Source: Galeopterus variegatus (lineage: Eukaryota). Taken from it: DNA of 64,000 nucleotides. Each line of letters begins with the position of its first letter. Within the stretch, counting starts at the first letter, position 1. The stretch covers positions 538,522 to 602,521 of the forward strand of contig NW_007726576.1 of the NCBI RefSeq assembly GCF_000696425.1. Direction: 5' to 3'. Below the pieces are notes generated by a model. It was not told where the DNA came from. It searched no databases and saw only the letters and a list, made by a program, of their open reading frames with translations. The position numbers and the translations under genes were made by a program. This document shows, in pieces, positions 17,335-56,465 of this stretch.

Positions 17335-17445
17335 TGTCCCAGGTTCTCTTCCTGTCCATCACTTACCAGTTGCATGACTTCAGCTAAGTCCTTTAATTCT
17401 TCTGGCTGTAGTTTCCACTTATCAAAAGGAAATAACGGCCCTTCT
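17335..17445 (+). repeat. MIR (mammalian-wide interspersed repeat) fragment
   Basis: CACTTACCAGTTGCATGACTTCAGCTAAGTCCTTTAATTCTTCTGGCTGTAGTTTCCACTTATCAAAAGGAAATAAC matches the MIR core ...CTTACCAGCTGTGTGACCTTGGGCAAGTCACTTAACCTCTCTGAGCCTCAGTTTCCTCATCTGTAAAATGGG. Confidence 0.5.
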
Positions 17446-19846
17446 GTCTCACCACCCTGAGGCTATTAAACAGTGGATGGCTGAGAAGCAGGGCCAGGTG
17501 TTCCTACAGATACAGGTCACCTGGCCTGTGCTACTCAGGCCCCGGGTTCCACAGAGCAGGGACCTACAGCATGCTCGCTCATCCCTGGGCAGATGCTCAC
17601 ACACTGCCCTTCAAAGGGTGCTTACCCATGGCTCTCCCAGGATAATCCTGCCCTCAAGGGGCATTACTGGTTGTTACACCGGGAAGCAGATGCTAGTGTA
17701 CCTGGTATAGAGGGCAGGGACACTGCTGAACACCCGGTGGTGCTGGACAGGCCACAGTGTGACAGTGAGGGCAAGAAGCCCCGTTGGAACGACTAGATCC
17801 CAACAATGATGTTCCAGGGCAGTTTCTTGTACCCTTGCGCTCCGGTAATGACCAATTTTACATACTTTCTCCCGAGATGAAAAGGCTTTTATTTTGTTTC
17901 AACTTCTGAAAATCTTTCCCGTTTATTTCTTCTAAACCTCAATAAAACTAATACAATACACAAAATCCTTAAAGCAATTAAAATACTGCTTTTCAGCAAC
18001 AAGTACCTAAATAAGTAAAACAAATTACAGATATCACTAGTCTTATCTAACTTAGACACTAGTTACACAAGCTCTGAGTCTCTTCTCAAGGAAGAAACGA
18101 CCCACTCCCCGAGCACCCTGGCTCCCTCCCAGGCCCCTCTGTGCCCGCTGTGACTTGACACAGACGCCTCCTGCCCCCAGCCCTTGCTTGCCCTTCTGAG
18201 CCACCGCCTCCCCTCATCTTTCTCCTGCTTCTCTTTCCCACGCAGGCTCCTTCCGTCCTTGGCCTTCCCTCTTTCTCGGCCTATGGCTAGAGTCACTGTA
18301 CCCTAGGCTGCCGACCCCCAGATCTGAGTCTCCAGTCCACACCCTCCCCTGAGCTCAACCCCCTAAGTGAGATGCCTCCCGAGCATTCCAGCTCAAAGGC
18401 CACATCTGCACAGCAGAGCACCCAGCTCCCTGCTCAACCTGCTGCTACTCCTTACCTTAGAAACAAGGCGACTGAGCATCAGCTTGGTCGCCACATTTTG
18501 TGAGTTCCACCACCTAAGAAGCCATTGAATCTACCCACTTCTTTCCCTCTGTCACCAATCTAGGCACGGATGACTATAATTTCACTCTATTTTAAGAGCC
18601 TCCCTACACATCTGCAAAGTGCCCTTCTCGCCAGTCCATCCCCCTACTGTACACTAAGGAACATTCAAACGAACCACCCTATAAGCTGATTCTTTGTCCA
18701 GCCTAACCTCTTGGTGGCTCCCAACTGCCCTCAGGACAAGCTCCCGGTTCCTTAGCATGCTGTAGAGAGTTTCTGTGCGCCCCCCTTACGCTCCAGAGGT
18801 AACAAGTGTCTGCTGTTCAGAACGCACCTGTAACTCCTCGCTGAGAGGATGCTCGGAGGTGCCACCTCTGCTCTGAACATGTGGCAATAGCAGAAGCACA
18901 TAAAGGACATTAAAAAAATTTTAAAGTACATTTTAAAGATTCAAAGCTCAGGCTTCTGAACAAAATATTTCCATGAACCAGAAATGAGACAGAAGCATAA
19001 AGCAGTGATGACGGCTTAGACCTGAGTTTGCAGGAATTTGCAGGTCTGGGCCCTCAGAGTGACAGGGAAGAAGGGAGGACCCAGCGCCAGGCCCACGCAG
19101 AGCTGGGCCGCGCCCCTTTGCTTACCCAGGACAGCGGCTGGCAGCAGGAATTGCAGACAAATCCCTGCTGGGGGCAGTGGCTTACATAAAGGTGCATCCT
19201 GGGGGGAAGGTGGGAAGACAGAGCCATGTTACCCCCCGCCCCCCGCCCCATTGCAGCCGAGTGTCTGGATCTGCTGCATCCTAACGGCATCTTGACCCAG
19301 GAACCTGGAACTGCCACAGAGGAATGGGTGGCAAGGCCAGGGCCCCACAAGACAAATGTGAAACTGCTCAACAGGGAGGGGAAATAACAGGGTGCTGGGG
19401 GGGGGGCCTCCAACAACCTTCTCCTCAAAATGTATCTGCAAACCACAATTCCACAACACACACAGAAGTCAGAGTCTAAGGAGACACACGCACCACCATG
19501 AAATGGTAATGAGCACACCAACAGCACTCCGAGGTCTCTGTCCCACTCCAGCTCTGCTGATGCCCCCCTGGCCCCCCACCCCCAAGTGCATGTCCTTTCA
19601 GGACACAGCTCGCCACCTGTTACATCCACTCTCGGACTGGCCCTAGGTGCCCACCCAAGCGCTCCTTGGGCCTTGCTGCCCTGCCTCCCTGGTCTGCGGG
19701 TCGCTGGAGTCCAAGGACCATCTTGGAGCCCAAGGACCATCTTGCCCCACGCTGTGCCCAGTCCCCAGCACGGGGCAGCAGTGGCAGTGCCAACATGAAC
19801 ACCTGCTGAGTGACTGAAGAGACAGGTGACCTGTGGGAGGGTTTAC

Positions 19847-22095: not shown

Positions 22096-22184
22096 CTCTT
22101 GATCTAGGTTATATTCTTCATTCGAATTAAGTGCAACCTTTACTGTAATATAATCCCCATTTTTCACAGCATCCCTTAACACAT
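22096..22184 (-). CDS. MPHOSPH8: MPHOSPH8 exon 7 (start of ankyrin-repeat region)
   Basis: Acceptor ATTTTAG|AT (AG at 22186-22185). Translation N VLRDAVKNGDYITVKVALNSNEEYNLDQE. Donor GAG|GTAAAA (GT at 22095-22094). 89 nt, ends in phase 0. Confidence 0.92.
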
Positions 22185-22265
22185 CTAAAATGAAAAGAAA
22201 AGATAAATTAGGTTTTATATATCTAGATTTGTGAAAGAGATTTCTATAATTCCGAAACTACTCAC

Positions 22266-22391
22266 TACTGGGAACTGCATCTGCTGTAACAAAATTTTCA
22301 TCTTCTCCATCAAGGTGCTTTTGAAAATCTTCTAATTTCATCCATTCCAACTGCAAATCCATGCCCAGACTCAAAATCTGTTGTCTACCAT
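22266..22391 (-). CDS. MPHOSPH8: MPHOSPH8 exon 6
   Basis: Acceptor GTTCCAG|AT (AG at 22393-22392). Translation D GRQQILSLGMDLQLEWMKLEDFQKHLDGEDENFVTADAVPS plus A. Donor A|GTGAGTAG (GT at 22265-22264). 126 nt. Confidence 0.9.
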
Positions 22392-23189
22392 CTGGAACAC
22401 ACAAGAACCTTATCAACATGTTTTTCTGGAGTATTAAAAAAGTGCTGTTTATTAAATTTGTGGTGTCTTAAAATTGTACATATGCTTTTAACATGAGTCA
22501 TTATATAACTGAGTCTTTAATTGATAAAATTTGTGGTTTTCTTTGTGATTAAAAACTAGCCACATGCCATGGTGCTGCAAAGGCATAAAGATAAATAGGT
22601 AATCTATAACTGTAAAATGGTAAGAGATGAATTTTTAGTACAGGACAAAGTAGCTCGACAGAAGGAAAAATCACAGGGATTCAGTAAGAGGACTTGTAAT
22701 TCTAACACAACTTCTTTCTTTGGCCATTATTGGATATACACTGCATAGCTTCCAGCCACTTACACAGTCATTCTGAGTGTGTAAAGACGACCTGCATGTA
22801 AGTAGAAGTCACTGCCTGGTGATCTTTGCAGAATCAGCTCAGTTCCCTCCTTCCACAGCCTGGGCACACCCGCCATCACACCCTAGGGCAATGCGAGGGG
22901 GTGCCTTTACGCTGGGGGTGGAGGGTTCATCCCTTATTACTGCTGCAATCAATTACTGGGATGTCCGCATAGCTCATTTGGCAGTAATTCGAAATGGCAA
23001 TAGGCTATTTTTTAAAATGACAAACAAATATCTGATGGTAAGAGTTAAAGAATTTTCACCTAAAACCAATTTCTCAGACTACATAGATGTTAGACTGATA
23101 ACCTTGCCATAGAAATGAAGTTTGTAAATGATATGCAAATAAATGATCTTTTTCTAAAGCCCTCAACTCAAAGGCTCCTTGCTAACACA

Positions 23190-23340: not shown

Positions 23341-23915
23341 ACATACACAAGCAGCATGAACTGACTTATTTACTCCATACACAATAACCTGTAAGGGGAT
23401 ACATGTTACAGGTGAGGAGAGAGAGGCTTAGAGAGGTCTTCCCACTCAGACATGTCTTAGTCCACAGTGGAGCTCCCAGCCCCCACACCCACCACGGAGG
23501 AAGCAATGTCTCAGCACCACGGAAAGACTGTGGGTGCAGGACAGGCGAGGCCCCCGACTGCAATAATGCCATCTGAGTCACAGGACTGCTGCAAGGAACT
23601 GAGAACGTACTCAAACTAAAACTGTCAGAACGGCTTCTGCTGCAGCTCAGACCGTGGTCTCTAACAAAGCCAACTGGTTCAAAACCTGTGTCCACTCCTA
23701 CCAAGTCTTAGGTCTTGCCTCTGGATCTGGTAGGTTTAACTTTCTCTGTATTTAACTTAAAAATCAGATATACCATAAAGAATGTAAGTCATGAAGCAAA
23801 ACAATGAACTGCGCCTGTGACCACCAGGCAACTGGGGTGGGGGTGCCCGTGCACCTTGCACTGCCCCTCTGTGATGACATCTCCACAGGGAGAAGGTGCC
23901 AGGCATACCCTTTCC

Positions 23916-24146
23916 TTTTTTTTTTTTCCTTTTTGTCTTTTTTCGTGACCGGCAACGGATCGCAACCCTCAGTGTCACGCCCGTACCAGACCGGGACCGG
24001 CCACGGGATCGCAACCCTCGGTGTTGTGCCCACACCTCGCTCAGCCAGTGAGCGGCCGGCCTGTATGTGGGATCCGAACCCTCGGCGGGAGCGCCACCAC
24101 ACTTCCCAAGCGGCGCACTGTAGCAGTGTGCCACCGGGCCGGCCCC
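23916..24146 (-). mobile_element. t-SINE trimer, TSD ATACCCTTTCC
   Basis: Full trimer in reverse orientation. Direct repeat ATACCCTTTCC at 23905-23915 and 24147-24157. Confidence 0.9.
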
Positions 24147-25107: not shown

Positions 25108-26242
25108 TGTATTTGCTTTTTGTACGATGGTCTTAAATCCAGTCATCCTGTAAAACTTCAAAAATTTCTAACAGTTTATTTATAGATTCTTTTGGCTTTT
25201 CTACATAGATCATGCCACCTGACAATGAGGGTTTTTTTTATTTTTTTTGCTTCCTTTCCAATGCTTATACCCTTTTCCTTTGCCTTACTGTGCTGGGTAG
25301 GATCTTTGTAAATGTTGAATAAAAATGATGACAGAAGGCATCTTTGTATTGTTCGTGATTTCAAACAAATGTTCCTAATGTTTCACAGTCACAAAAGACG
25401 TTTGCCGTAGGTTTAATACTCTTCTATCAATCGAGAAAGGCCCCTTTATTGATCGTTTGTTAAGGTTTTTTTTTTTTTTTTTAAATCAAGAATACTGTTA
25501 AATCCACTTCTCCTTTACTCACTGGATTCCTAGGGAAAACCCATCTTGATCGTAAGCGATTATTTTTTTAAACAAGGCTAGATTCAATTTGTTAACGTTT
25601 TGAGATTTTAACATCTGAATTCATGAGTGAGCTTGGCCTGTTGTTCTCCTTTCTTACATAGTTATCTCGTTTTGGTATTGACGTTATAACTGTCTAAGAG
25701 AATAAGTAAGAGTTCTTTGTTTTTAGGAAGACTTTTTCAAGTTTGATATTTTTGCATATAAAACCATCTCAGCCTGGTGTTAAATCTGTGTGGCTGTTTT
25801 AGTTACTATTTCAGGTTCTTTAATAGTTACAAGCCTATTAAGGCTTTCTATTTTTCCTTGGGTCAGTTTGGTTGAATTATATTTTTCCAGGAATTTTTCC
25901 ATGTCATTCAGTTTTCAAATCTATTGGTAAGGAATTGCTCACAGCATTCTTTTACCTTTTTAATCCATGCACACGTCTCTTTTTTATCCAACATATTGTT
26001 TAAGTCTTCATTCTTTCACTCTTTTTAGAGGCTTGTCTATTTTATCAGTCTTTTCTAGGAACCAATGCTGGCTTTACTGATGCTCTCTACTCTATCTTAT
26101 TTGTTGTTTGGCATCCCAAAAGCAATGCTGCTATTTGGCATCTGCCCTCTGGGCAACCTTCTTTCTCCTCCTTGCCCACTAATCCTGGAAATTATCCTGA
26201 TTTTCTGCAAGCTCAGCCAGTGCATCCAAAAACACACGGCAT

Positions 26243-26411
26243 GGGCCAAGCCCGTGGCGCACTCAGGAGAGTGCGGCGCTGGGAGCACAGCAGCGCTCCC
26301 ACCACAGGTTTGGATCCTATATAGGGATGGCCGGTGCACGCACTGGCTGAGCACGGTGCGGCCGGTCTCAAAAAAGACAAAACAAACAAACAAACAAAAC
26401 AAAAACAAAAA
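26243..26411 (+). mobile_element. t-SINE, CTATATAGGG-class with (CAAA)n-like tail
   Basis: GGGCCAAGCCCGTGGCGCACTCAGGAGAGTGCGGCGCTGGGAGCACAGCAGCGCTCCCACCACAGGTTTGGATCCTATATAGGGATGGCCGGTGCACGCACTGGCTGAGCACGGTGCGGCCGGTCTCAAAAAAGACAAAACAAACAAACAAAC. Confidence 0.8.
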
Positions 26412-27969: not shown

Positions 27970-28190
27970 CTGTAGTTGTGGCAAAGGCCTGCTGAGGATG
28001 GTGGGCCTCAGAATGAGACCCACCTGGTCATGCCACCCATCTCCTACTGCTAGATACACCAGACTGTCAACCACTGCACACTGTAGTTGTGGCAAAGGCC
28101 TGCTGAGGATGGTGGGCCTCAGAATGATACCCACCTGGTCATGCCACCCATCTCCTACTGCTAGATACACCAGACTGTCAACCACTGCAC
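27970..28190. repeat. tandem duplication, 2 x 111 bp (MPHOSPH8 intron 4)
   Basis: CTGTAGTTGTGGCAAAGGCCTGCTGAGGATGGTGGGCCTCAGAATGA(G/T)ACCCACCTGGTCATGCCACCCATCTCCTACTGCTAGATACACCAGACTGTCAACCACTGCAC twice, about 98 percent identical. Confidence 0.85.
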
Positions 28191-29379
28191 CCTTAGTTTG
28201 TATAGATGTGATTTCTGGTGGTGAGGGGGAGAAATAGCAGGTGCCTGAGCACCAACAATGCACCTGGTAAAACTGTACCTGATGCCACCAGCTTTTAAGT
28301 GAATAATAGTGGGAAGAAAACTGGCAAAGCTCCAGACTTGTCATAGGAAATAATCCAAAAAAGAAAACGCTATTAGGAAGAATTGTATTATAAACTCCAG
28401 GTACATAGTAGACAGATTTTATTAGCAAGGGATATTGAAAACCGGACTCCCAGTGAGTACCATTATAAATGGGACAAACAGTAGTTCCATTTAAGGCATA
28501 CTGGGTCACAGTAAAAGTGTGCCTTCAATTGACATACGAGACGCCAGGAATAAGAAAAAGTTAACGAACCAGGTCCAATTTTGCAATATTTTGAATCACT
28601 CTTTGAAGAATAGCAGGGGTTTAAAATGTTTGTATTATTTTGAACAGATATGCTCTTTCACTTACAGTAACTTACGCACGACCCACTGGAACAGCAACTG
28701 TTCCTTCCCAGCTTCAACTACCTGCTTCTACCTTCAAGCCTCGCTCAGCTGAGAAATAAAATCTACTATCAGTATTACTTCAAATACATACAGCTTTTGG
28801 GAGAAAACCCAGGGGAAATTATCCACCTCTTAGAAACACTGCTTCCAAGAGAATGTGTGTTCCAAGTACTTTTGGTACATAAACTATTTATCTACTGGAG
28901 CTTATTCAAACACCATACGGTGATTTTTGAAATGAAGCAGTTGTTTCAGTACTGACATGTGTTATGGATTCTCAATTATGGTATATCTTGAAGTGATCCA
29001 AAATGTGTATTCAACATTATACTTGTGTTGGTACAAATGACACAGAGTAAAATACAATGAATATATTAAGCAAGTCTGTTTTATTTAGCATGCACTATAA
29101 AAAAGACACATTTACTTTTCTGCCATAACTAATTTCTTGTCTAATTCTAACTTACTCCATCAGCATACTGAAAAGGAGGAAAAACTAATTACATAATTAC
29201 ATAAGTTGTTATATAATAAATTTACATAACTGGTTAAACAAAGGCTCTAAATTCCCCAGTGAATAAAATTTTCCAGTTCTATGACATAGCAGGTTAGAAA
29301 AGACTGTCTTATAGTAAATTAATTTCTTTGCATAAAAGATGGTACTGTAAATGGTTAAAATGTTAGTATTTACACTCAC

Positions 29380-29479
29380 TCTTTAATCCCTTTGGCTCTT
29401 TTCGGCCTTTTTCTTCCTTCTCTGAATCATGCCTTTTCTGATATTTTTCTTTGGGTTCATTTTTTTTGGTCTCTTTCTC
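29380..29479 (-). CDS. MPHOSPH8: MPHOSPH8 exon 4
   Basis: Acceptor TTTTTCAG|GAG (AG at 29481-29480). Translation EKETKKNEPKEKYQKRHDSEKEEKGRKEPKGLK plus 1 nt. Donor A|GTGAGT (GT at 29379-29378). 100 nt, ends in phase 1. Confidence 0.9.
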
Positions 29480-30739
29480 CTGAAAAAGACATATGTAAGA
29501 CCCTGAACGAGAATGGATAAAAGGCTGGTATTGTCTATTTGAAAACTGGAAAACACCGGTTCCTGGTGTCAATGACTGCCTTTATAAACTGTGGCACATG
29601 GCCAGAGATCATTAAGTTTTTTCGCATAAACTGCTTCCTCAATCAAGGTTATCCTTCAATCACATGATAATTTCTAAAACATCAAATCCAATTTAATATA
29701 AAAAATAATCTCCCCCCAAATCTCACCTATAGTCTTACTGATCACACACGACTATTTTTATTTCTCCATGCTCCCCCTTCTGAACTTGTCACTTTGCATA
29801 CATAATTTTTAAAAATTCATTTTCTTTATTTACACTGCATAGATATTTTTACATGGCAGTGTTCATATGTATGTATGGTATTCTTCTCCACCCCATTTTC
29901 TAAACTTTCCTGGTTTTGCTACAATGATGTCATAATTAATATTTCAATGGCTATAACAGTCCCCAGGTTGCCACATCAATATTTTCTTAACCATCTCCCC
30001 CATGGCTAGAGGGTTAGACTGTCATCAGCTGTTCACTACTGAAGATAATACTGCCAAATCCATCTTTGTATACACAACTTTTTTCATCCTTTTAAAATGG
30101 TTTACTTAAGAAAAATTCCCAAAACTGGGAATAATGGATGAAAAAAAAATTATCTTTTCTTATGGTCTGGTCCTTGATAAACAATGCATATAAGAATACT
30201 TTCATAATTTGAAAAATATTTCCATTTTGAAAAAACACATACCAGTGTTTTTATAATAATGAGAGAAACTATTAAATATGCTTTTGTAAGAATTAAAAGA
30301 CTTGTAATGTTAATGCATTTTGTATAATATTAAGTAAAAAGTGGTTTATTCTTAAGACAATGGAGGGAACATACCAAGAACAATGTGAAAACCTAATAAA
30401 ATATGCTGATGAAGCAATAAGCCTGAGTACACAACGCTGCAGATCACCTGAGTAACCCTAAAAGGACATGCTGACTTTTGCACATAAATTAGCCCTCAAT
30501 TTTCTAGTTGTAGTCAGTGTAAAAGGCAACCAGCTGCAGGCAGAGAGAAGCTGGTAGTCCCCTGGCTGAGGAGCTCAGCCTTTACAGCTGTCCACGCTTA
30601 GCCACACTATTCAGCACCCCCCTGATGATGCAAACACTGTCAGTTTGACCGTTTCCTTTTCATCGCTTGTGACACTTGTGGCCCACTCAGAACAGCACTA
30701 GCCCGCCGCACCCTGCGAGGCTGCCCCCGCGGCCCTTAC

Positions 30740-31591
30740 CTCCTCCGTGCAGCCACCGGACCTGAGCCCGAGGCCCCTCTCTTCCCCGCCCGGTCGCCAG
30801 CCCTTCTGCGGCGTCTGGGCAGACACAGGTGTCGGCTTATCTACCTCGGGGGTGTTTCCGCCTCTGTCTTGACCCCTTTGCTTTTTAGGCACAGTTTTCC
30901 TCTCTAAGAAAGAGTTCTTGTTTCCCAGCTTCCTGCCCTCCTTGGGGTCCTCGGGCTTCCTCGGCGCCTTCTTCTTCCTCTTGGCTCTGAGGTGCGCAGG
31001 CTCCTCCGCACCCGCGCCCGCCGGCGGCTCCTCAGCTGCGCGGTCCTCGCGGGCCTCCTGCCCGGCTCGCTCTTCTGCGCTTTGAACTTTCTGTTGCTCT
31101 TCTCGGATATCAGAGTGTAAGTCTTCACTGTCATCTTCTTGAAAAGGGGAATCATTAAGCACACTTGATTCAGATTCCAACTGAGAGTCAACGCATTTCT
31201 CTTTTTTTGTTTTTCTGTTTTCTTTGGGATCTTCTCTTTTAATCTTTAAATCTCTTATTTCACCCTTTTTAACTTTCTTTAATTCCTTACTTTCTTTTAT
31301 TTCATCTTTCTTGGGCTTTTTGGATTCCTTTAATTCTTCTTTGGCTTCCAAAATTCTTTTCTTTGTCCTTAGATCAAAAACTAAGCTTTCGGAGGTGCCT
31401 TCCAGGTCTGGTTTGGACTTATCTTTTGGCTTCCCAGTCTTTGCTTTTTTCTTTTTCAGATCATCTGGGCTTTTCTCTTCTCTATGCCTCAATTTTTTCT
31501 TTTTCTTCTTTGGAGAAGTATCTTCTTTTGTCTCACTTTGCTGATCACTATCAGAGTTTGCCTCAAATATGTCATTATTTAAGGATAGTCT
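30740..31591 (-). CDS. MPHOSPH8: MPHOSPH8 exon 3: large K/E/S-rich low-complexity exon (852 nt)
   Basis: Acceptor TATAG|AGA (AG at 31593-31592). Translation RLSLNNDIFEANSDSDQQSETKEDTSPKKKKKKLRHREEKSPDDLKKKKAKTGKPKDKSKPDLEGTSESLVFDLRTKKRILEAKEELKESKKPKKDEIKESKELKKVKKGEIRDLKIKREDPKENRKTKKEK...KTVPKKQRGQDRGG...PVSAQTPQKGWRPGGEERGLGLRSGGCTEE. Donor GAG|GTAAGG (GT at 30739-30738). 284 codons in phase 0, same frame as the 264-aa track ORF 30698..31492. Near-identical to the MPP8 disordered region as recalled. Confidence 0.9.
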
Positions 31592-32462: not shown

Positions 32463-34745
32463 CCTTACAGGCATACCATGTGCATTCCTCTTCACTGATA
32501 GTGAGTTTTTACACATCGAAGGTTTGTGGCAACCCTGTGTAGAACTAATCTACCAGCATTATTTTCCCAACAGCATGTGCTCACTTCGTGTTTCTGTGTC
32601 ATATTTTGGTAATTCTTGCAATAGTTTTCACTTTTCCATTATTATTACATCTGTTACGGTGCTCTGTGATCAGTGATCTGTGATGCTGCTACCATAATTG
32701 TTTTGGGCACCACAAGCCACACCCACACAATACGCAAACTTCATAAATGATGTGCGTGTTCTGACTGCTGCACCGACCGGTTGTTCATCTCTCCCCCTCT
32801 CCTCAGGCCTCCCTATTCCCAAATACAATACTGAAATTGGGCCAATTAATCCTACAATGGCCTTTAAGTGTTCAAGTGATTTTAAGACAAAGCTGGAAAT
32901 GATTAAGCTCAGTGCTGAAGGCATGTCAGAAGCCAAGACAGGCCAAAAGCAAGGCCTCTTGCTCCAAACAGCCAAGTTATGAGTGCAAAGGGAAAGTTCT
33001 CGAAGGAAATTAGAAGTGCTCCCCAGGAAACACACGAATGACAAGAAGCCAAGCAGCCTCATTGCTGATGTGGAGAAAGGGCTAGCAGTCTGGACAGAGA
33101 TCAAACCAGCCACAACATTCCCTTAAGCCAAAGCCAGACCCAGGGCACGGGTCCCAGCTCCCTTCAATTCTGCAAAGGCTGAGAGAGGCGAGGAGGCTGC
33201 AGAAGAAAAGTCTGAAGCCAGCAGAGGTTGGCATATGAGGTCTAAGGAAAGAGGCTGTGTCCATAGCATAAAAGCTCAAGGTGGGGCCGGCCCGGTGGCG
33301 CACTGCGCTAGTGTGCCGCTTGGGAAGCACGGAGGCGCTCCCGCCGAGGGTTCGGATCCCACATGCAGACCGGTTCCCGCTCACTGGCTGAGCGAGGCGT
33401 GGGGGCAACACCGAGGGTTGCAATCCCGTTGCCGGTCCCGGTCCGGTACGGGGGCGACACTGAGGGTTGCGATCCGTTGCAGGAAATTAGAAGTGCTGCC
33501 CCAGGAAACACATCAAGGACAAGAAGCCAAGCAGCCTCATTGCTGATGTTGAGAAAGTGCTAGCGGTCTAGAGAGATCAAACCAGCCACAACATTCCCTT
33601 AAGCCAAAGCCTGACCCAGGGCACAGGCCTCAGCTCCCTTCAATTCTGTGAAGGCTGAGAGAGGCGAGGAGGCTGCAGAAGAAAAGTCTGAAGCCAGCAG
33701 AGGTTGGCGCATGAGGTCTAAGGAAAGAGGCTGTGTCTATAGCACAAAAGCTCAAGGTGGAGAGTGGATGCCGATGTGGAAGCCACAGCAGGTTATCCAG
33801 GATCTAGCTAAGCTCAACCACAGATTTGCAGTGTAGACCTAACAGCCTTCTATTGGAAGAAGATCTGGGCAGAGAAAACTGAAAACCTTCTGGAAAGGAT
33901 GCACCACTCTAGATGCCGTTAAGAACATTTGTGAGTCATGGGAGAAGGTCGAAATATGAACATTAACAGGAGTTTAGAAGAATTTGATTCCAACCCTTGC
34001 AGATGACTTTGAAGGGCTCAAGACTTTCGTAGAGGAAGTAACTGCTGATGTGGCGGAAACAGCAAGAGAATCAGAATTAGAAGTGGAGCCTGGAGATGGG
34101 ACCGAACTGCTGCAATCTCGTGATAAAACTTTAACAGATGAGGAGTTGCTTCTTCTAGAGGAGCAAAGAAGGTGGTTTCTTGATGTGGAATCTACTCCTG
34201 CTGAAGATGCTGTGAACAATGTTGAAATGACAGCAAAAGATTTAAGGTATTACATAAACAGTTGATAAAGCAGCAGCAGGGTTGGAGAGAACTGATTGCA
34301 ATTTTGCAAGAAGTTCTCCTGTGGGTAAAACACCATCAAACAACACTGTATGCATCAGAGAAATCTTTTGTTAAACCAAGAGTCCATTGATGTGGCAAAC
34401 TTCACTGTTGTCTTATTTTAAGAAACTGCCACAGCCACCCCAGCCTTCAGCAACCACCACCCTGATCAGTCAGCAGCCAGGGGCACCAAGGCAAGACCCT
34501 CCACCAGCAAAAAGATTACGACTTGCTGAAGGCTCAGCTGATTGTTAGCATTTTTAAGCAATAAAGTATTTTCTAATTAAGGTATGTGCATTATGTTTTT
34601 AGACATAATCCTATTGCACATTTTAATAGACTACAGTAAACATAACTTTTATATGCACTGGGAAACAGAAAAATTTGTGTGGCTTCCTTTATGGTGGTGG
34701 TCTGAAACTGAACCTGCAATCTCTGGGGTATGCCTGTACTTGTTG
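32463..34745 (+). mobile_element. Tigger1-like (pogo/Tc1-mariner superfamily) DNA transposon remnant, internally deleted, carrying a secondary SINE insertion
   Basis: Decayed transposase reading frames: ...KCSSDFKTKLEMIKLSAEGMSEAKTGQKQGLLLQTAKL..., [30 protein letters not shown]..., LYWKK..., FWKGCTTLDAVKNICESWEKV..., [91 protein letters not shown]..., [45 protein letters not shown]. Terminal CAGGCATACC-like ends at about 32463 and 34745 (rc). The middle of the transposase is missing. Confidence 0.65.
33284..33480 (+). mobile_element. t-SINE trimer, 3'-truncated, no poly-A, flanked by a 280-bp duplication
   Basis: GGCCGGCCCGGTGGCGCACTGCGCTAGTGTGCCGCTTGGGAAGCACGGAGGCGCTCCCGCCGAGGGTTCGGATCCCACATGCAGACCGGTTCCCGCTCACTGGCTGAGCGAGGCGTGGGGGCAACACCGAGGGTTGCAATCCCGTTGCCGGTCCCGGTCCGGTACGGGGGCGACACTGAGGGTTGCGATCCGTTGC, then an abrupt junction with no A-tail. 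Confidence 0.8.
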
Positions 34746-36888: not shown

Positions 36889-37108
36889 GGCCGGCCTGGT
36901 GGCGCACTGGATAGTGCGCCGCTTGGGAAGCGCGGCAGCGCTCCCGCCCGAGGGTTCAGATCCCACATGCAGACCGGTTCCCGCTCCCTGGCTGAGCGAG
37001 GCGCGGGAGCAACACCGAGGGTTGCGATCCCGTTGCCGGTCCCCGGTCCGGTACGGGGGCAACACTGAGGGTTGCGATCCGTTGCCGGACACGGAAAAAG
37101 ACAAAAGA

Positions 37109-37145
<37 letters not shown>
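36889..37145 (+). mobile_element. t-SINE trimer, young: about 48-nt pure A tail, TSD CACAAGAAG
   Basis: Full-length trimer, nearly free of CpG decay. Uninterrupted A tract 37098-37145. Direct repeat (A)CACAAGAAG at 36878-36888 and 37146-37155. Confidence 0.92.
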
Positions 37146-37146
<1 letters not shown>

Positions 37147-37913
37147 ACAAGAAGTAAAATCACACATACCACAGTCTGAGTACTTTTAGTACACTGGCAA
37201 CCTGTCGTCTTACTCATTTTAATGGTCTCACAGGTAAAATAAACATATTATTTATTATCCAAAATTAGGACAACTTTGAAAATGAAACAGGATGCTAATA
37301 ATTACACCAAGACAACAGGTGTAAACCAGGACTGAGCCAGGCCAATCAACATATACAGTCCTCCTACTCTGTTTAAGTAACACCACAGTCTAGGGGAACA
37401 CTTACTGAAGCATACCTAACAGCTTTATCTTCACACCTTGTATATAATAGTTCAAAAGTGACTGATGATAACATTTGCCAAACAAGTATATATATGTAAA
37501 TGCACATATATACACTGATGAAGGAAAGAGGCCAGAAAAGGAGAACAAAAGAAAAAAGAACCACAGTGACTCCATTCTTTTTGAACTTGACTGACTTGTT
37601 CTCTTCTAGCCCAAGAAACGGACCTTCCATTAGAATTTATTGCTTGACAAACTCTTTACAGGGAATTTGTTGTCACCAACGTACCCATTACTTAGATAAA
37701 CACAGATGACACTGTTAGAGAAATCCTGGGATGGTTGTCAACCTGCTGTATTTTAAATAAATGGGAATTACTTAGGAGTTGAGTAACTTAGAGTATAAAT
37801 ACTGTAAAAGGCCTGAGAAACCATTACTCAAATCTCATAGTCAGATATCCGTTCCATCTTTATACAATGTTTAAATTTGTTTACTGCTTAGACTTTCCTG
37901 AACTCACACTATA

Positions 37914-38083
37914 TCTTTTTTTTTTTTTTAAAAGATGACCGGTAAGGGGATCTCAACCCTTGGCTTGGTGTTGTCAGCACCACGCTCAGCCAGTGAGCAA
38001 ACCGGCCATCCCTATATAGGATCCGAACCCGTGGCCTTGGTGTTATCAGCACTGCACTCTACCGAGTGAGCCACGGGCCGGCC
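37914..38083 (-). mobile_element. t-SINE dimer, young: perfect 17-bp TSD
   Basis: rc of GGCCGGCCCGTGGCTCACTCGGTAGAGTGCAGTGCTGATAACACCAAGGCCACGGGTTCGGATCCTATATAGGGATGGCCGGTTTGCTCACTGGCTGAGCGTGGTGCTGACAACACCAAGCCAAGGGTTGAGATCCCCTTACCGGTCATCTTTTAAAAAAA. Direct repeat TCTGAACTCACACTATA at 37896-37913 and 38084-38100. Confidence 0.92.
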
Positions 38084-38593: not shown

Positions 38594-39014
38594 TTTTTTT
38601 TTTTTTTTTAAAGATGACCGGTAAGGGGATCTTAACCCTTGACTTGGTGCCCTTTTGTCTTTTTTACTGACCGGTAACGGGATTGCAACCCTCGGTGTCG
38701 CACCGGCACCGCGCTCAGCCAGTGAGCGGGAACCGGTCTCCACATGGGATCCGAACCCTCGGCCGGCCCAAATTTTTTTTTTGTCCTTTTCGAGACCGGC
38801 CGCACTGCGCTCAGCCAGTGAGCGGGAACCGGTCTCCACATGGGATCCGAACCCTCGGCCGGCCCAAATTTTTTTTTTGTCCTTTTCGAGACCGGCCGCA
38901 CTGCGCTCAGCCAGTGAGCTCACTGGCCATCCCTATATAGGATCCGAACCCACAGCGGGAGCGCTGCTGCGCTCCCAGTGCTGCACTCTCCCGAGTGCGC
39001 TATGGGCTCGGCCC
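38594..39014 (-). mobile_element. t-SINE pile-up: at least 3 head-to-tail elements with an internally duplicated ~110-bp unit
   Basis: Same-orientation array. It comprises a dimer 3' unit (38594-38653), a 2-unit element lacking the box-A region (38654-38770), a 110-bp monomer-like copy (38771-38880) and a CTATATAGGG-class element (38881-39014). The last two share an identical 55-bp 3' end including the tail AAATTTTTTTTTTTGTCCTTTTCGAGACCGGCCGCACTGCGCTCAGCCAGTGAGC. Outer TSD ATTTTATAA(C/T)TTTTT. Confidence 0.85.
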
Positions 39015-39966
39015 ATATTTTATAATTTTTTAAAAAACATACGTGTTTTCTGGATAAAATATCTATTAATAAAAAAAATTTTTTAAATTATTTTAAAAGA
39101 AAGTGAAAGGGCAAAATTCTTAGTATATGATACTAACTTTAAAAGATATACATCTATGTACAACCTGAAAGGCACCTCAAAAGCAGAAAATAGATTTTAC
39201 CTATCATTCTGTAACTGTAACCACTAAAGGATCTGGCCCATATAAGGCACTCTACGTTTACCTAAAAAAAAAAAAGGCTAAAAATTGTAAAATGTTGATG
39301 TACTAACACAGTAGAGGTTCATTTGTCTTACACAGCATTGATCATCAAAGCTCAAAGCAGACTATTAGTTGCCTTACTTTTAGATTTTCAGTCCATTAAA
39401 AATGAAGGGTGAGACCCTATCACACACATGGATATTAAACAGCTCTTCATTTTTTTTTTTTTTTTTTGGTTTGAAATAACCCATGATCAGCAAAGATTTT
39501 CGGTATCAAAGTGCTAAATGATAAAAAGTACTTTAATGAACAAATAACATTCTTGCATCATGTATATTTTCTGGTTAAGTAGTATTAGAACCATTCTTTT
39601 GGTTATTTTAGAACCATTTCTAACTTCTGTGATGTGTAATATTTGCAATATATATTTGGTTTGTGCCTCAAAGTCGCATCCTCCCCCTACCACCAAGAAA
39701 AACATATGCTAGGACAACATAAAGTACCTCTCAGACCTTCTTAAATAAAAGTTATGGGAGGCCATTGATTTGCAGCCAGCTCTTGCACTAGGCCCCAAGA
39801 GACCAAAACAAAATGGAGCCACTCATGCTAAGTGCCATGTAATCAAATTGAAAGTTTAAAAAAACCCAAAACATCCCCATACCAGCAGGCAACAAAACAA
39901 AACAAAACAAAAAAACAGAAAATCCCCAAACAGGCCAGTTTTCCAGAAAATAAAAATAAATACAGG

Positions 39967-45268: not shown

Positions 45269-45436
45269 GTGTGTTTTTTTTTTTTTTTTTTGTCCTTTTT
45301 GAGACCTGCCGCACCGCTCTCAGCCAGTGAGGGCTGTGAGCGCACCGGTCATCCCTATATAGGATCCAAACCTGCGGCGGGAGTGCTGCTGCACTCCCAG
45401 CGCCACACTCTCCCGAGTGCACCACGGGCTCGGCCC
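45269..45436 (-). mobile_element. t-SINE, CTATATAGGG-class, TSD CAAGTGAAGTGT(G)TTT
   Basis: rc of GGGCCGAGCCCGTGGTGCACTCGGGAGAGTGTGGCGCTGGGAGTGCAGCAGCACTCCCGCCGCAGGTTTGGATCCTATATAGGGATGACCGGTGCGCTCACAGCCCTCACTGGCTGAGAGCGGTGCGGCAGGTCTCAAAAAGGAC + A17. Direct repeat AAGTGAAGTGT flanks both sides. Confidence 0.9.
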
Positions 45437-45753
45437 AAGTGAAGTGTTTTGACATATGCCTTTTTTTTTCCCCTTTCATCTTACTCTTAACTTAAAGGAA
45501 AATATTATCCAACATTCATGTCCAAACTATACTTGTCTGTCAGCTGCATTGTAGGTTGGTTGCAGAAAGAAGAGTTGGGCAAAAATCACTGAAAAGTATT
45601 GTATGAAAACTCAATTGGCGATATGGATTTTACACAAAGAAATACTACATATTTTATTACTTGTAAATTATTTACTACAACATGCTTTATAACAATAAGA
45701 TTTATAACAAACTCATGTACATAAAAAAATAAGTATGAGATAAAACATGATAC

Positions 45754-45909
45754 CTGAATATCCTTCTTGATTGCTTTAGCTTTGTTCTCTGCCACTTTCT
45801 TTCTAAATTCCAGAAGAACTTCTTTACAGTCCTCCAGATGAACCTCAGGCTCCCAGGTGTCATCATCTGATGTATATCCTTTCCATCGAACTTTGTAAAG
45901 GATTTTACC
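45754..45909 (-). CDS. MPHOSPH8: MPHOSPH8 exon 2: chromodomain
   Basis: Acceptor cAG|GGT (AG at 45911-45910). 156 nt in phase 0: GKILYKVRWKGYTSDDDTWEPEVHLEDCKEVLLEFRKKVAENKAKAIKKDIQ, a canonical chromo domain. Donor CAG|GTATCA (GT at 45753-45752). Confidence 0.93.
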
Positions 45910-46272: not shown

Positions 46273-46689
46273 AGGAAGAACCAAATAAAAGTCACTCAAA
46301 GACACTGGTAACAATTTGATCTATTTCCTTCACCTACTACACTAATTTATTAACAGATAAGTAACATTTTTTAAAACACTGGGATAATACTATAATTTTT
46401 AAGTTTGCTTTTTCACTTATATATATCAAGCTCTTCGTTTTCAATATTTTTCAAAAACATGATTTTTAATGACTGAAGATTATTCCATCATATATTCTCT
46501 TTGTTAACTCTCCCTTTGTTAACCAGCAAATTACAGAAGGGCCTGCCCCCTGTTTTTGCTCATCCTGTGAGCTAAGAATGGTTTTATATTTTCAAATGAT
46601 TGAAAACAAATCAAAAGAAGAATTATATTTATAAAGTGCTTTACAATGTGTCACATAATATCTAAATCTTTGTATTTATTAGCTCATTT

Positions 46690-46860
46690 AATCCTTATAA
46701 TAACCCCGTGAAGTAGGTACTATTACTCATTTTATAAATGAGGAAACTGAAGCTTTTAGATAGATTAAGTAACTAGTCAAAGATTACACAGCTAATGAGT
46801 AGTTCAGCTGACTGAATTCAAACCCAGAGTCTTATCCTGAGCCTGTGCTCTTAACCTGCT
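46690..46860 (-). repeat. MIR (reverse orientation)
   Basis: TTTTATAAATGAGGAAACTGAAGCTTTTAGATAGATTAAGTAACTAGTCAAAGATTACACAGCTAATGAGTAGTTCAGCTGACTGAATTCAAACCCAGAGTC matches rc MIR: TTTTACAGATGAGGAAACTGAGGC.CAGAGAGGTTAAGTAACTTGCCCAAGGTCACACAGCTAGTAAGTGGCAGAGC.GGGATTCGAACCCAGG. Confidence 0.6.
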
Positions 46861-47240: not shown

Positions 47241-47430
47241 GGCCGGCCCGGTGGCGCACTGGAGAGTGTGCCGCTTGGGAGCGTGGCGGCGCTCCCGCCA
47301 AGGGTTCGGATCCCATGTGGAGACCGGTTCCCGCTCGCTGGCTGAGTGTGGTGCGGGTGCGGCACCGAGGGTTGCGATCCCATTGCCAGCCATGAAAAAA
47401 AAGACAAAAAGGAAAAAAAAAAAAAAGAAA
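47241..47430 (+). mobile_element. t-SINE trimer inserted in L1, TSD (A)GAAAATTAAG
   Basis: GGGCCGGCCCGGTGGCGCACTGGAGAGTGTGCCGCTTGGGAGCGTGGCGGCGCTCCCGCCAAGGGTTCGGATCCCATGTGGAGACCGGTTCCCGCTCGCTGGCTGAGTGTGGTGCGGGTGCGGCACCGAGGGTTGCGATCCCATTGCCAGCCATGAAAAAAAAGAC... Direct repeat GAAAATTAAG on both sides, interrupting L1 ORF2-homologous sequence. Confidence 0.9.
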
Positions 47431-50762: not shown

Positions 50763-50838
50763 GGCCGGCCCATGGCTCACTTGAGAGAGTGTGGTGCTAA
50801 CAACACCAAGCCAAGGGTTAAGATCCCCTTTCCAGTCA

Positions 50839-50870
<32 letters not shown>
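50763..50870 (+). mobile_element. t-SINE monomer, A34 tail
   Basis: GGCCGGCCCATGGCTCACTTGAGAGAGTGTGGTGCTAACAACACCAAGCCAAGGGTTAAGATCCCCTTTCCAGTCATCTTT + A34. Confidence 0.8.
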
Positions 50871-54160: not shown

Positions 54161-55099
54161 AGTCTAACTCTCCTTTACTGACTTACACATGTAAGTTTCT
54201 TAGTTTCATCCACTTCAGACTAAAATATGAAGCTTTAGATACCGTGCCTACAATTCTTTGAGACCGGCAAAATCAAATACTGACCGAATGAATGGCTGAA
54301 TCATCTTAACTTTCTAAATATCTTCTATGTGCCAAGCACTGTGTTAAATGCCGGCAATATAAAACAGTCTAAGATTGACTTCTCTCACCTCAGGTGCTTA
54401 CAATATATTTGGGGAAATTACACTTAAAAAAATTCTATCTTTACTGTACTGCAACTAACAACAATATTAATGACACTGGACTTCGATTACTTAACTCCCC
54501 TGGACAGGAGAACTTTACAGTATCAGCAACTATGTATGTTTGAATTAATCTCTATACAGTCCAGATCTCACAAAGCATCTGGCACATGGTAGCTGCTGAA
54601 TGAATGGACAATAAAATTAACACAGGCAGCATACATGACAAATGAGAAATAATAGATAATGAAAAGAATACAACACAGAGAACGACCACTGCATGAGACC
54701 TTTGGTCACCTCACCCCATCTTCTAAAACAGATTTTCCTATTGTCCACGATTTCCCGCTTTTCCCTCCCCTAACCTCCAGCCCACAACTCATTCGCTCAT
54801 TTAATAATCTGGTACTAAGAAGTCACTGCATGCCAGGCACTGGACTAAGTACCAGTAATGCAAAAATTAATAAAAATCACATCCCCTGGAGTAAAGGAGC
54901 CCACAATCTAGTGGGAGAGACGAACGTAACGGACGATACTGCCTTAAACGCCCTACAGAAGTCTACAGTACGTGGAATAAAGCAGAGATGAGAAAGCACT
55001 CTGCAGGGATCAGGATCAACAACTACTCTCACAGAGAAATGGGCCCAGAGGCTTTGAAAGACTTAGTAGGATTTCACCAGAAGAGACGGAAGAGAACAG

Positions 55100-56120
55100 G
55101 GCAGACGGGAGAACGGTTAGCGCCGAGGCGCGGCGTGACGACGAACCTCACGTGTGGCCGCGCGGCTACAATCATCTAACGCGCAGGGGAGAGACGGACA
55201 ACGGGAATTCCGCAAGATTTCAGAGCAGAGAACTGACCACGGTGTCGGGAAACACCGTCAGTGACGGCCGCGGAAGTCCTGCACAGCTGCCTGCACGCTC
55301 GCGCCATCCTCACACGCACGCCGCACACTGCTTCGTCCCTTCTGCCGAAGGGTCCTCTCTAACTTCTGGACGTGTCCTCCACAGACGCCGACCTAGGAGT
55401 CCACTGGGAAGCATCGTCCCGCCTCTCCCGAGACCCGCGCCAACGGTCGCGTCCACAATCGCGGGCGTTCCCAGCTCGGCCCTCCCCTCCCGCCCCCCCG
55501 CTCCAGGACCCCCGCGGACCCCCGCGCTTCACGTCCAGGACCTTCGCCGCCGCACACACGCCCTCGCCGGAAAACCCACGTACCCCCTCAGTCTTCACGT
55601 CCAGGATCTTCTCCACCTCGAATACGTTCTCCTCGTCCTCCTCGCTGTCCCTCACGGCCTCCGCTCCTTTTGCGGCTGCATCCTTTCGCCCCGATTCCTC
55701 TTCGGCTTCGGGCAACTCATCATTGCCGTCGCCACCTGACACAAGAACTGCGGTCACACTCGTTGCCTCCGCAACGGGAGCCACTGCCGCCATCGTAGGA
55801 GCTCCGCAAACTGCCAAAAAAAGCAGCTGCGACACACACTACGGCGGCGTGACCGGGCTGGGAGGGATACCGGCCAATGGCGGGCCCGAGATCGTGGAGT
55901 GACACGCACAGGAACCAATCATGTAAAGGCTGGCACGGCGGAGCCTACGGGAAGCGGGTGGGCGGGCCCCAGGACGCCTGGGGCGGAAGAACGTCGTCTG
56001 GGGGCGGGTGGAAGGGGTCGCGGGGTGGCGGGGCTGCCGGTCGCTCTGGAGAAGGGAGGAGAGCCCGGGAAGTCCTGGAGGGGCGGAGCGGGGCTCAGGC
56101 GCGCAGGGCGGAATGACAGG
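55100..56120 (-). promoter_or_regulatory. MPHOSPH8: CpG island / putative MPHOSPH8 core promoter and 5' UTR
   Basis: About 1 kb of very high GC with dense CpG dinucleotides, in contrast to the AT-rich flanks. It contains the exon-1 ATG. The TSS cannot be fixed from sequence alone but should lie within about 55800-56000. Confidence 0.6.
55584..55793 (-). CDS. MPHOSPH8: MPHOSPH8 exon 1 (coding part): acidic N-terminus
   Basis: Minus-strand ATG at 55793-55791. Translation MAAVAPVAEATSVTAVLVSGGDGNDELPEAEEESGRKDAAAKGAEAVRDSEEDEENVFEVEKILDVKTEG (70 codons), ending at donor GTACGTGGG (GT at 55583-55582). Lies inside a CpG island. The EDxxVFEVEKILDxKTEG motif matches the MPP8 N-terminus just before the chromodomain. 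Confidence 0.88.
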
Positions 56121-56127
56121 GCCACAT

Positions 56128-56243
56128 CCGCATTACATTTTTATTTTTATTATTTTTTGGTGGCTGGCAAGTACAGGGACAGAACCCGTACACTTGATAT
56201 CATAAGGCTGTGCTCTAACCAACTGGGTAACCGGCCAGCCCTC
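56128..56243 (-). mobile_element. t-SINE monomer immediately upstream of the MPHOSPH8 CpG island
   Basis: rc of GGGCTGGCCGGTTACCCAGTTGGTTAGAGCACAGCCTTATGATATCAAGTGTACGGGTTCTGTCCCTGTACTTGCCAGCCACCAAAAAATAAT. Confidence 0.75.
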
Positions 56244-56465
56244 ACATGCGTTTTAGGAGAATCATTCTGCGTACACTAAGGAGACTAGATTGTATGCCAG
56301 TAAGTCAGATAACTGGAAGAAATGAATAAATACCTGGAAATATACAATGTACCACTACTGAGTCATGAAGAAATAACTGAAGCAGTGGTCAAAAATTTCA
56401 AAAAAGAAAAGCTCAAGACCAGATGGCTTCACTGGGGAATTCTACCAAATATTTAAAGAAGAACT

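What the first reader, a model, noticed from the sequence alone, without database searches (positions are those of the whole stretch)
30700..31100. Intragenic CpG-rich island at the 3' end of the K/E-rich exon 3 and start of intron 3, with lineage-specific GC-driven protein divergence
The last ~350 nt of exon 3 and the adjacent intron are strongly GC- and CpG-rich (for example GCCCGCCGCACCCTGCGAGGCTGCCCCCGCGGCCC, CGCACCCGCGCCCGCCGGCGGCTCCTCAGCTGCGCGGTCCTCGCGGGCC), unlike the AT-rich lysine codons of the rest of the exon. The encoded stretch here (EERAGQEAREDRAAEEPPAGAGAEEPAHLRAKRKKKAPRKPEDPKEGRK...GWRPGGEERGLGLRSGGCTEE) is Ala/Gly/Pro/Arg-rich. The human sequence as I recall it is S/T/D/K-rich at the same positions, while flanking residues are nearly identical. 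This suggests local GC-biased gene conversion or emergence of an intragenic CpG island (a possible alternative promoter or regulatory element) in this lineage.
Basis: partly seen in the sequence, partly recalled or inferred. Interest (0 to 1): 0.5.

Follow-up and report, generated by a model that had tools for sequence, protein, structure and literature searches.

The report
GC-biased substitution hotspot in MPHOSPH8 exon 3
A 650-base stretch across the end of exon 3 and the start of intron 3 of the chromatin-silencing gene MPHOSPH8 has become GC- and CpG-rich in this mammal through a local burst of A/T-to-G/C substitutions, which is the known signature of GC-biased gene conversion and an ordinary kind of event, although two other mammals show the same thing at the same spot.

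Summary
Window 30561-31210 (minus-strand MPHOSPH8: the last ~370 nt of exon 3 plus the first ~180 nt of intron 3) has GC 0.58 and CpG o/e 0.72, against flanks with GC 0.24-0.37. It is the only CpG-island-like segment in the 64 kb that is neither a SINE copy nor the gene's promoter.

Aligned DNA from seven other mammals (human, titi monkey, felid, bat, guinea pig, bovine, murid-like) shows the state is derived:
- 47 weak-to-strong against 8 strong-to-weak substitutions on the window lineage.
- The W>S rate is 4.6 times that of the flanks (p=3e-12), while the S>W rate is unchanged.
- All three codon positions and the intron are hit.
- 29 of 38 CpGs are absent from all seven species.
- 17 gains against 3 losses of Gly/Ala/Arg/Pro.

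The reading frame, the splice donor and the basic KRKKK run are intact.

The best reading is a local episode of GC-biased gene conversion in a weakly constrained, domain-free linker of MPP8. A function as an intragenic CpG island or promoter was not tested.

"Lineage-specific" is only partly right. Pig and an unnamed mammal carry independent GC peaks at the same exon-intron junction.

This is a new example of a known kind, of modest interest.

The parts
30740..31591 (-). MPHOSPH8 exon 3 (852 nt, 284 codons). It encodes a Lys/Glu-rich linker with no Pfam domain.
   Evidence: Acceptor ...ttttatag|AGA and donor GAG|gtaagg read. 72-74% identity to proteins named M-phase phosphoprotein 8. No Pfam family.
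30740..31110 (-). GC-enriched 3' part of exon 3 (GC 0.636, 29 CpG; GC1/2/3 = 0.67/0.52/0.72).
   Evidence: On the window lineage 29 W>S against 3 S>W. 35 nonsynonymous against 14 synonymous codon changes, with 17 gains against 3 losses of G/A/R/P.
30560..30739 (-). GC-enriched first ~180 nt of intron 3, including the donor GT at 30739-30738 (GC 0.589, 8 CpG).
   Evidence: Collinear with human and titi intron 3, so not an insertion. 18 W>S against 5 S>W. The window branch is about twice as long as the human or felid branch here.
30561..31210 (.). The whole block meeting CpG-island sequence criteria (650 bp, GC 0.58, o/e 0.72).
   Evidence: Unique within the window, with no similarity to the SINE families. 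29 of 38 CpGs are absent from all 7 comparison species.
31111..31591 (-). Unaffected Lys-rich 5' part of exon 3 (GC 0.343, 2 CpG), used as an internal control.
   Evidence: Only 9 W>S and 2 S>W, and the changes are mostly at third codon positions.
54931..56280 (-). Promoter CpG island and exon 1 of MPHOSPH8 (context: the only other non-repeat CpG island in the window).
   Evidence: GC 0.61, 122 CpG, o/e 0.96. Exon 1 match at 55584-55679.
45727..45909 (-). Exon 2, chromodomain (context: gene identity).
   Evidence: Pfam Chromo E=7.7e-12. tblastn match.
29378..29482 (-). Exon 4 (context). It is conserved and AT-rich, which shows the enrichment ends within intron 3.
   Evidence: tblastn 83% identity. 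GC 0.3-0.37 in this area.

Best explanation
[quoted passage not shown] In heteroduplex repair G/C alleles are transmitted preferentially, so A/T-to-G/C mutations fix at a raised rate whatever their effect. Here this acted on a segment coding for a weakly constrained, domain-free linker between the chromodomain and the ankyrin repeats of MPP8, and on the adjoining intron. Lys/Asp/Ser/Thr/Asn codons were passively converted to Gly/Ala/Arg/Pro codons. The high CpG observed/expected ratio is a by-product: new CpGs were created, and CpG decay (a strong-to-weak change) was opposed. Shown here: the derived state, its direction, its localisation, its indifference to coding, and the amino-acid consequence. 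Inferred: that recombination and gene conversion, rather than a mutational bias, caused the fixation bias.
For: (1) Direction: polarised against the consensus of seven mammals, the block has 47 W>S against 8 S>W (binomial p=8e-8). (2) Localisation: W>S per ancestral A/T site is 0.27 in the block against 0.058 outside (Fisher p=2.9e-12), while S>W per ancestral G/C site is 0.059 against 0.041 (p=0.6). In 100-bp bins the excess runs from ~31100 to ~30400. (3) Independence from coding: the intron part is affected as strongly as the exon (18:5), and exonic W>S changes fall on codon positions 1/2/3 as 13/8/8. GC1, GC2 and GC3 are all raised. (4) Not an artefact of CpG decay in the other species: only 7 of the 47 W>S changes are transitions inside CpGs, 33 are outside CpGs, and 18 are transversions. 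(5) Not an insertion or repeat: the block is collinear with orthologous exon and intron in human and titi and unique in the window. (6) The gene stays intact: open frame, GTAAGG donor and the basic KRKKK run are kept. (7) The segment evolves fast in every lineage (branch lengths 0.13-0.16 against 0.03-0.06 in the 5' part) and has no Pfam domain, so there is little constraint to oppose gBGC. [quoted passage not shown]
Against: No recombination, polymorphism or methylation data exist for this species, so the link to recombination is inferred from pattern only. The W>S to S>W ratio is also skewed outside the block (28:8), and the ratio itself does not differ significantly (Fisher p=0.40). What is local is the W>S rate, not the bias as such. 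Ancestral states come from a majority or near-unanimous consensus of seven species (27 of the 47 W>S sites have one dissenting species), not from a model-based reconstruction. The species is unidentified and no close relative was available to date the episode. The total branch length in the exonic part (0.157) is only slightly above human (0.127) or felid (0.146).
Confidence: 0.7

Rival explanations
1. The block is a functional intragenic ('orphan') CpG island, meaning a germline-hypomethylated alternative promoter or regulatory element that arose in this lineage. Its CpG richness is maintained because unmethylated CpGs do not decay. This could coexist with gBGC if hotspots are directed to such sites.
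For: The block meets strict sequence criteria for a CpG island (650 bp, GC 0.58, o/e 0.72). Only the gene's own promoter island matches it among non-repeat sequence in the window. Independent GC/CpG peaks at the same junction in pig and an unnamed mammal would fit a shared underlying chromatin feature.
Against: Hypomethylation preserves CpGs but cannot turn A/T into G/C. 33 of the 47 W>S changes are outside CpGs and 29 of the 38 CpGs are newly created. No island exists at the orthologous site in human, titi, felid, bat, guinea pig, bovine or murid (CpG o/e 0.0-0.38). CpG o/e (0.72) is below that of the true promoter island (0.96), and CpA is not depleted (o/e 1.22, TpG 0.99). No transcription or methylation evidence is available.
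Confidence: 0.15
2. A local mutational bias produced the excess of A/T-to-G/C changes without any fixation bias. Candidate sources are error-prone repair, R-loop or transcription-associated mutagenesis, or a replication origin.
For: The substitution pattern alone cannot separate biased mutation from biased fixation.
Against: Known mammalian mutational spectra are AT-biased, and no described local process gives a 4.6-fold rise in W>S with unchanged S>W over ~0.7 kb (background knowledge). Both transitions (29) and transversions (18) towards G/C are raised.
Confidence: 0.08
3. Positive selection on the MPP8 linker favoured Gly/Ala/Pro/Arg replacements, for example through an arms race involving HUSH-complex silencing of retroelements.
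For: 35 nonsynonymous against 14 synonymous codon changes in the 3' part of exon 3, compared with 8 against 12 in the 5' part.
Against: The same directional change occurs in the adjoining intron and at synonymous sites. Replacements are those predicted by GC pressure (17 gains against 3 losses of GARP). The segment is fast-evolving in all mammals. Excess nonsynonymous change with W>S clustering is the documented false-positive signature of gBGC (PMC2631073).
Confidence: 0.04
4. The block is an artefact or foreign sequence: an assembly chimera, contamination, or a CpG-rich transposable-element insertion.
For: Every other CpG-rich segment in the gene body is a SINE copy.
Against: The block aligns base-for-base with orthologous exon 3 and intron 3 in seven or more mammals, keeps the reading frame and splice donor, and has no similarity to any repeat in the window.
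Confidence: 0.02

Closest known systems
[quoted passage not shown]
   Same: Clustered weak-to-strong substitutions confined to one exon on one branch. There is an excess of nonsynonymous W>S changes, and the bias also appears in flanking non-coding sequence.
   Different: Those studies tie the pattern to measured recombination rates or to many-species phylogenies. Here neither recombination data nor close relatives are available. The tract covers only part of the exon and crosses the exon-intron boundary.
Fxy (Mid1) in Mus musculus: the 3' part of the gene, moved into the pseudoautosomal region, gained GC in exons and introns and many amino-acid changes (background knowledge; the gene is mentioned in PMC2631073)
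   Same: A sharp intragenic boundary between an unaffected part and a part with GC gain at all codon positions and in introns, plus GC-driven amino-acid replacement.
   Different: Fxy is explained by a known translocation into a region of extreme recombination and affects several kilobases and several exons. Here the tract is ~0.65 kb with AT-rich sequence on both sides, so it is a point hotspot rather than a regional change.
Orphan or intragenic CpG islands (Gardiner-Garden & Frommer and Takai & Jones sequence criteria)
   Same: Length, GC content and CpG o/e criteria are met.
   Different: The island is not conserved at the orthologous position in most mammals. No methylation or transcription evidence exists. 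The composition is explained by newly created G/C and CpG rather than by preservation of old CpGs.

Membership tests
gBGC tract (recombination-associated W>S substitution cluster) | Excess of weak-to-strong over strong-to-weak substitutions on the focal branch | tested here: met
   47 W>S against 8 S>W in the block. Robust to CpG-decay misinference, since only 7 of the 47 are CpG transitions.
gBGC tract (recombination-associated W>S substitution cluster) | Spatial clustering at hotspot scale (about 1-2 kb or less) with unaffected flanks | tested here: met
   W>S rate 0.27 inside against 0.058 outside, p=2.9e-12, with S>W unchanged. GC profile relative to the donor site.
gBGC tract (recombination-associated W>S substitution cluster) | Acts regardless of function: intron, synonymous and nonsynonymous sites are all affected | tested here: met
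   Intron 18:5. Codon positions 13/8/8. GC1, GC2 and GC3 all raised.
gBGC tract (recombination-associated W>S substitution cluster) | Coincides with elevated meiotic recombination or a DSB hotspot | not testable with these tools
   No recombination map, DMC1 or PRDM9 data. The species is not identified with certainty.
gBGC tract (recombination-associated W>S substitution cluster) | W>S derived alleles segregate at higher frequency than S>W alleles | not testable with these tools
   No polymorphism data.
CpG island (functional, hypomethylated promoter or regulatory element) | Sequence criteria: at least 500 bp, GC at least 0.55, CpG o/e at least 0.65 | tested here: met
   650 bp, GC 0.58, o/e 0.72.
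CpG island (functional, hypomethylated promoter or regulatory element) | Germline hypomethylation | not testable with these tools
   No methylation data. CpA is not depleted (o/e 1.22, TpG 0.99), which is only weakly informative.
CpG island (functional, hypomethylated promoter or regulatory element) | Transcription start activity or promoter chromatin | not testable with these tools
   No CAGE, RNA-seq or ChIP data.
CpG island (functional, hypomethylated promoter or regulatory element) | Presence at the orthologous position in other mammals | tested here: not met
   CpG o/e 0.0-0.38 and 0-8 CpGs in human, titi, felid, bat, guinea pig, bovine and murid. Present only in pig and one unnamed mammal, independently.
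MPHOSPH8 (MPP8) gene | N-terminal chromodomain, C-terminal ankyrin repeats, and exons collinear with named orthologues | tested here: met
   Chromo and Ank Pfam hits. 12 collinear exon matches to cat, cattle, guinea pig, bat and pig MPHOSPH8. Named hits.
CpG-rich SINE/transposable-element insertion | Similarity to other repeat copies, and absence from the orthologous site | tested here: not met
   No other match in the window. Collinear with orthologous exon and intron.

The most novel reading that the evidence does not exclude
The exon 3/intron 3 junction of MPHOSPH8 may be a recurrently used gBGC or recombination hotspot across mammals. Three independent lineages (the window species, pig, and an unnamed mammal) each built a sharp GC/CpG peak from about -400 to +200 nt around the same splice donor, at different nucleotide sites. 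All other mammals show a low-amplitude version of the same GC profile there. That would imply a conserved local determinant, such as a PRDM9-independent 'default' hotspot at a latent H3K4me3-marked or unmethylated intragenic element of this HUSH-complex gene, rather than three chance events.
Probability: 0.2. Interest if true: 0.5.

Novelty: new member of a known kind. Interest (0 to 1): 0.3.

Why it matters
This is a clean, small-scale example of how biased gene conversion can rewrite about 120 residues of a protein. G/A/R/P content rises from ~0.2-0.3 to 0.43, and the segment comes to look like a CpG island without any evidence of adaptation or regulatory function. It is a caution for anyone scanning MPHOSPH8/HUSH genes for positive selection, or annotating orphan CpG islands from sequence alone. 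The one point that goes beyond the ordinary is that the same ~600-bp spot was hit independently in pig and another mammal. If that holds on a dense phylogeny, it would give a tractable locus for asking what makes a recombination or gBGC hotspot recur over deep time.

Tried and rejected
1. Species identification was not achieved.
- No exact or near-exact protein is in the database; the best hit is 74% identical.
- NJ trees from the 481-nt unaffected exon part were unresolved, and the GC-rich lineages attracted each other.
- Identity over conserved exons does not discriminate: cat 0.850 against recalled human 0.853.
- The upstream intron is nearer to felid (0.137) than to human (0.203), but a three-taxon comparison gives no grouping.
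- Absence of Alu/B1, multimeric tRNA-Ile/Val-like SINEs, and the primate-like motifs RERAGQ and TVPKKQ suggest a colugo. Papers found gave no SINE consensus to test this.

2. A literature search for MPHOSPH8 together with GC-biased gene conversion found nothing.

3. A second, profile-based protein search, meant to widen the species sample, added only five sequences, all of normal composition.

4. Amino-acid counts for L009 and L010 taken from DNA slices used a wrong frame and were discarded. The protein-level values replace them.

5. The apparent 65%-identity 'divergent exon' at 22096-22392 is two exons joined across a short intron of roughly 80 nt, not a divergent region.

6. The identity of the unnamed GC-rich lineage (P0024/L009/L011) could not be established. 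It has no carnivore SINE and is only 71-73% identical to felid introns.

7. A search of solved structures was abandoned after a coordinate error because the region has no structured domain.

Full report
**What is there**

The window carries MPHOSPH8 (MPP8, a chromodomain and ankyrin subunit of the HUSH silencing complex) on the minus strand.
- Exon 1 and a promoter CpG island lie at about 54.9-56.3 kb, and the chromodomain exon at 45727-45909.
- Exon 3 is 31591..30740 and exon 4 is 29482-29378. Further exons run down to about 12.5 kb.
- Exon 3 starts after ...ttttatag and ends GAG|gtaagg, with the donor GT at 30739-30738.
- Database hits to its translation are named M-phase phosphoprotein 8.
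- Exon 3 has no Pfam domain, whereas exon 2 hits Chromo and a later exon hits Ank.

**Checking the observation**

- The interval 30700-31100 has GC 0.658, 33 CpGs and CpG o/e 0.80. Only 0.8% of 401-bp windows in the 64 kb reach that GC, and all the others lie in the promoter island.
- A scan with standard CpG-island criteria delimits a block at 30561-31210 (650 bp, GC 0.58, 38 CpG, o/e 0.72). Its flanks have GC 0.24-0.37 and 0-3 CpGs per 200 bp.
- All other island-like segments in the gene body are copies of a CpG-rich tRNA-derived SINE. The block has no similarity to anything else in the window.

The block reaches about 180 nt into intron 3. Part of the contrast within the exon is ancestral, because the 3' part of exon 3 is GC-richer than the Lys-rich 5' part in all mammals (0.40-0.52 against 0.33-0.36).

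**Comparative data**

Orthologous DNA covering exon 3 and its flanks came from contigs that encode database hits. Species labels come from named members of the same 90% clusters or from record names.

| Locus | Source |
|---|---|
| L001 | human (host DNA in an oral metagenome) |
| L002 | titi monkey |
| L003 | felid |
| L008 | Miniopterus-like bat |
| L006 | guinea pig |
| L005 | bovine |
| L007 | murid-like |
| L010 | pig |
| L009/L011 | unnamed mammal |

The window aligns collinearly with human and titi through the exon and well into intron 3, so the GC-rich intron part is not an insertion.

**The state is derived, directional and local**

In the 3' 371 nt of exon 3 the window has GC 0.636 and 29 CpGs. 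The seven 'ordinary' mammals have GC 0.40-0.52 and 0-8 CpGs. In the first 180 nt of the intron the window has GC 0.589 against 0.37-0.52 in six of the seven, with guinea pig at 0.645.

GC by codon position:

| Segment | GC1 / GC2 / GC3 |
|---|---|
| Window, 3' part of exon 3 | 0.67 / 0.52 / 0.72 |
| Seven other mammals, 3' part (ranges) | 0.46-0.56 / 0.33-0.50 / 0.38-0.60 |
| Window, 5' part of exon 3 | 0.42 / 0.29 / 0.32, the same as the others |

Substitutions were polarised against the near-unanimous consensus of the seven species.
- The window lineage has 29 W>S and 3 S>W in the exonic part, and 18 against 5 in the intronic part.
- Per ancestral A/T site the W>S rate is 0.27 in the block and 0.058 outside it (p=2.9e-12). 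The S>W rate per G/C site is 0.059 against 0.041 (p=0.6).
- In 100-bp bins the excess runs from about 31100 to about 30400.
- Exonic W>S changes fall on codon positions 1/2/3 as 13/8/8. In the unaffected 5' part, six of nine are at third positions.
- Only 7 of the 47 W>S changes are transitions within CpGs, which is the one class that parallel CpG decay in the other species could mimic. 33 are outside CpGs and 18 are transversions.
- 29 of the 38 CpGs are absent from all seven species.

**Consequence for the protein**

The 3' part shows 35 nonsynonymous and 14 synonymous codon changes, against 8 and 12 in the 5' part. There are 17 gains and 3 losses of Gly/Ala/Arg/Pro, for example K209A, D191A, N240G, T248P, S219G and D280G.

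The G/A/R/P fraction of the segment is 0.43. Apart from pig (0.40) and the unnamed mammal (0.48), the MPP8 sequences compared have 0.20-0.33.

The frame, the donor and the basic KRKKK run are kept. The segment evolves fast in every lineage, with branch lengths of 0.13-0.16 against 0.03-0.06 for the 5' part. This is consistent with a weakly constrained linker.

**Interpretation**

A clustered, one-directional W>S excess that ignores the exon-intron boundary and codon position, with AT-rich sequence on both sides, is the published signature of an exon-scale episode of GC-biased gene conversion. Its published features are clusters of W>S changes in fast exons, the same bias in flanking non-coding sequence, excess amino-acid replacement, and exon-specific, lineage-specific episodes (PMC2631073; PMC12290510).

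Hypomethylation alone cannot account for the data because it does not convert A/T into G/C. Selection on the protein does not explain the intron and the synonymous sites. An artefact or transposable element is excluded by collinearity.

A local mutational bias cannot be separated from a fixation bias without polymorphism data. I put gBGC at about 0.7. A functional CpG island as the primary cause is about 0.15, and it could coexist with gBGC.

The enrichment is not unique to this lineage.
- Pig has GC 0.62 and 26 CpGs in the same exon part. The unnamed mammal has GC 0.75 and 39 CpGs, with GC3 0.92.
- Measured from the splice donor, all three lineages peak between about -400 and +200 nt. In the window and the unnamed mammal, GC falls back to 0.2-0.4 within a few hundred bases.
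- Bovine, which is pig's fellow artiodactyl, lacks the peak.
- The sites changed in the window are not associated with those changed in the other two lineages (odds ratios 1.2-1.3, p=0.55-0.70). The episodes are therefore independent.
- All mammals show a low-amplitude GC bump at the same place.

This may only mean that a moderately GC-rich, unconstrained segment is an easy target. It may instead point to a recurrent hotspot determinant. Three of roughly twenty-five lineages is suggestive but not compelling.

**Limits**

- Ancestral states come from a consensus, not from a likelihood model.
- No close relative of the window species was found, and the species itself is not identified. It is probably a colugo: there are no 7SL-derived SINEs, it has multimeric tRNA-Ile/Val-like SINEs, and it shares primate-like residues. 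This was not tested.
- No recombination, methylation or expression data could be consulted.
- The W>S to S>W ratio is also skewed outside the block (28:8). The local signal is the rate of W>S change, not the ratio.

**Verdict**

The gBGC reading is supported, while the CpG-island-function reading is untested and less likely. It is a new instance of a well-known process in a gene where no paper in the searched library links it to gBGC. Interest is modest at 0.3, raised slightly by the independent recurrence at the same junction in other mammals.

Noticed in passing
L010 (pig) ~800-1700; L009 500-1094 and L011 800-1400 (unnamed mammal, P0024 cluster): Independent, sharply localised GC/CpG peaks at the same MPHOSPH8 exon 3/intron 3 junction. 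L011 reaches GC 0.80 and CpG o/e 0.99, then drops to 0.30 within 200 nt. The changed sites are not shared with the window lineage.
   Followed up: yes
window 152-246, 1146-1376, 3157-3306, 3592-3811, 7634-7790, 23908-24064, 26241-26386, 33323-33483, 36913-37143, 37912-38083, 38653-39030, 45336-45450, 47265-47407, 47820-48000, 50739-50867, 56463-56643, 63604-63677: There are many copies of CpG-rich SINEs built of one to three tRNA-like units (ARAGORN calls tRNA-Ile/Val; Rfam tRNA hits) ending in A-runs. No Alu or B1 match was found. Together with primate-like residues in MPP8, this suggests the window comes from a colugo (Dermoptera), but that was not verified.
   Followed up: partly
L006 (guinea pig), first ~100-140 nt of intron 3: The start of guinea-pig intron 3 is also GC-rich (0.65-0.66, 24 W>S against 5 S>W), although its exon 3 is not.
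   Followed up: partly
window 17400-19800: A unique ~2.4-kb intronic stretch is GC-rich (0.5-0.65) but CpG-poor (o/e 0.15-0.40). The part at 18.0-18.8 kb is strongly C-skewed on the + strand. It is a contrast to the exon 3 block, and its origin was not examined.
   Followed up: no
window 27970-28191 and 38706-38897: Two near-perfect tandem duplications were found: 2 x 111 nt at 98% identity, and 2 x 96 nt at 99% identity. The second lies inside a SINE cluster.
   Followed up: no
window 33096-33284 and 33572-33760: A 189-nt direct repeat pair (95% identical, 476 nt apart) flanks SINE sequence. It may be a duplication or a composite element.
   Followed up: no
window 22096-22392: Two MPHOSPH8 coding exons are separated by a very short intron of roughly 80 nt. 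tblastn reads it through as a 27-residue gap containing one stop codon, so it first looked like a divergent exon.
   Followed up: yes
window 46668-46856: An ancient MIR element (76% identical to a recalled MIR consensus) sits in intron 1, just upstream of the chromodomain exon.
   Followed up: no
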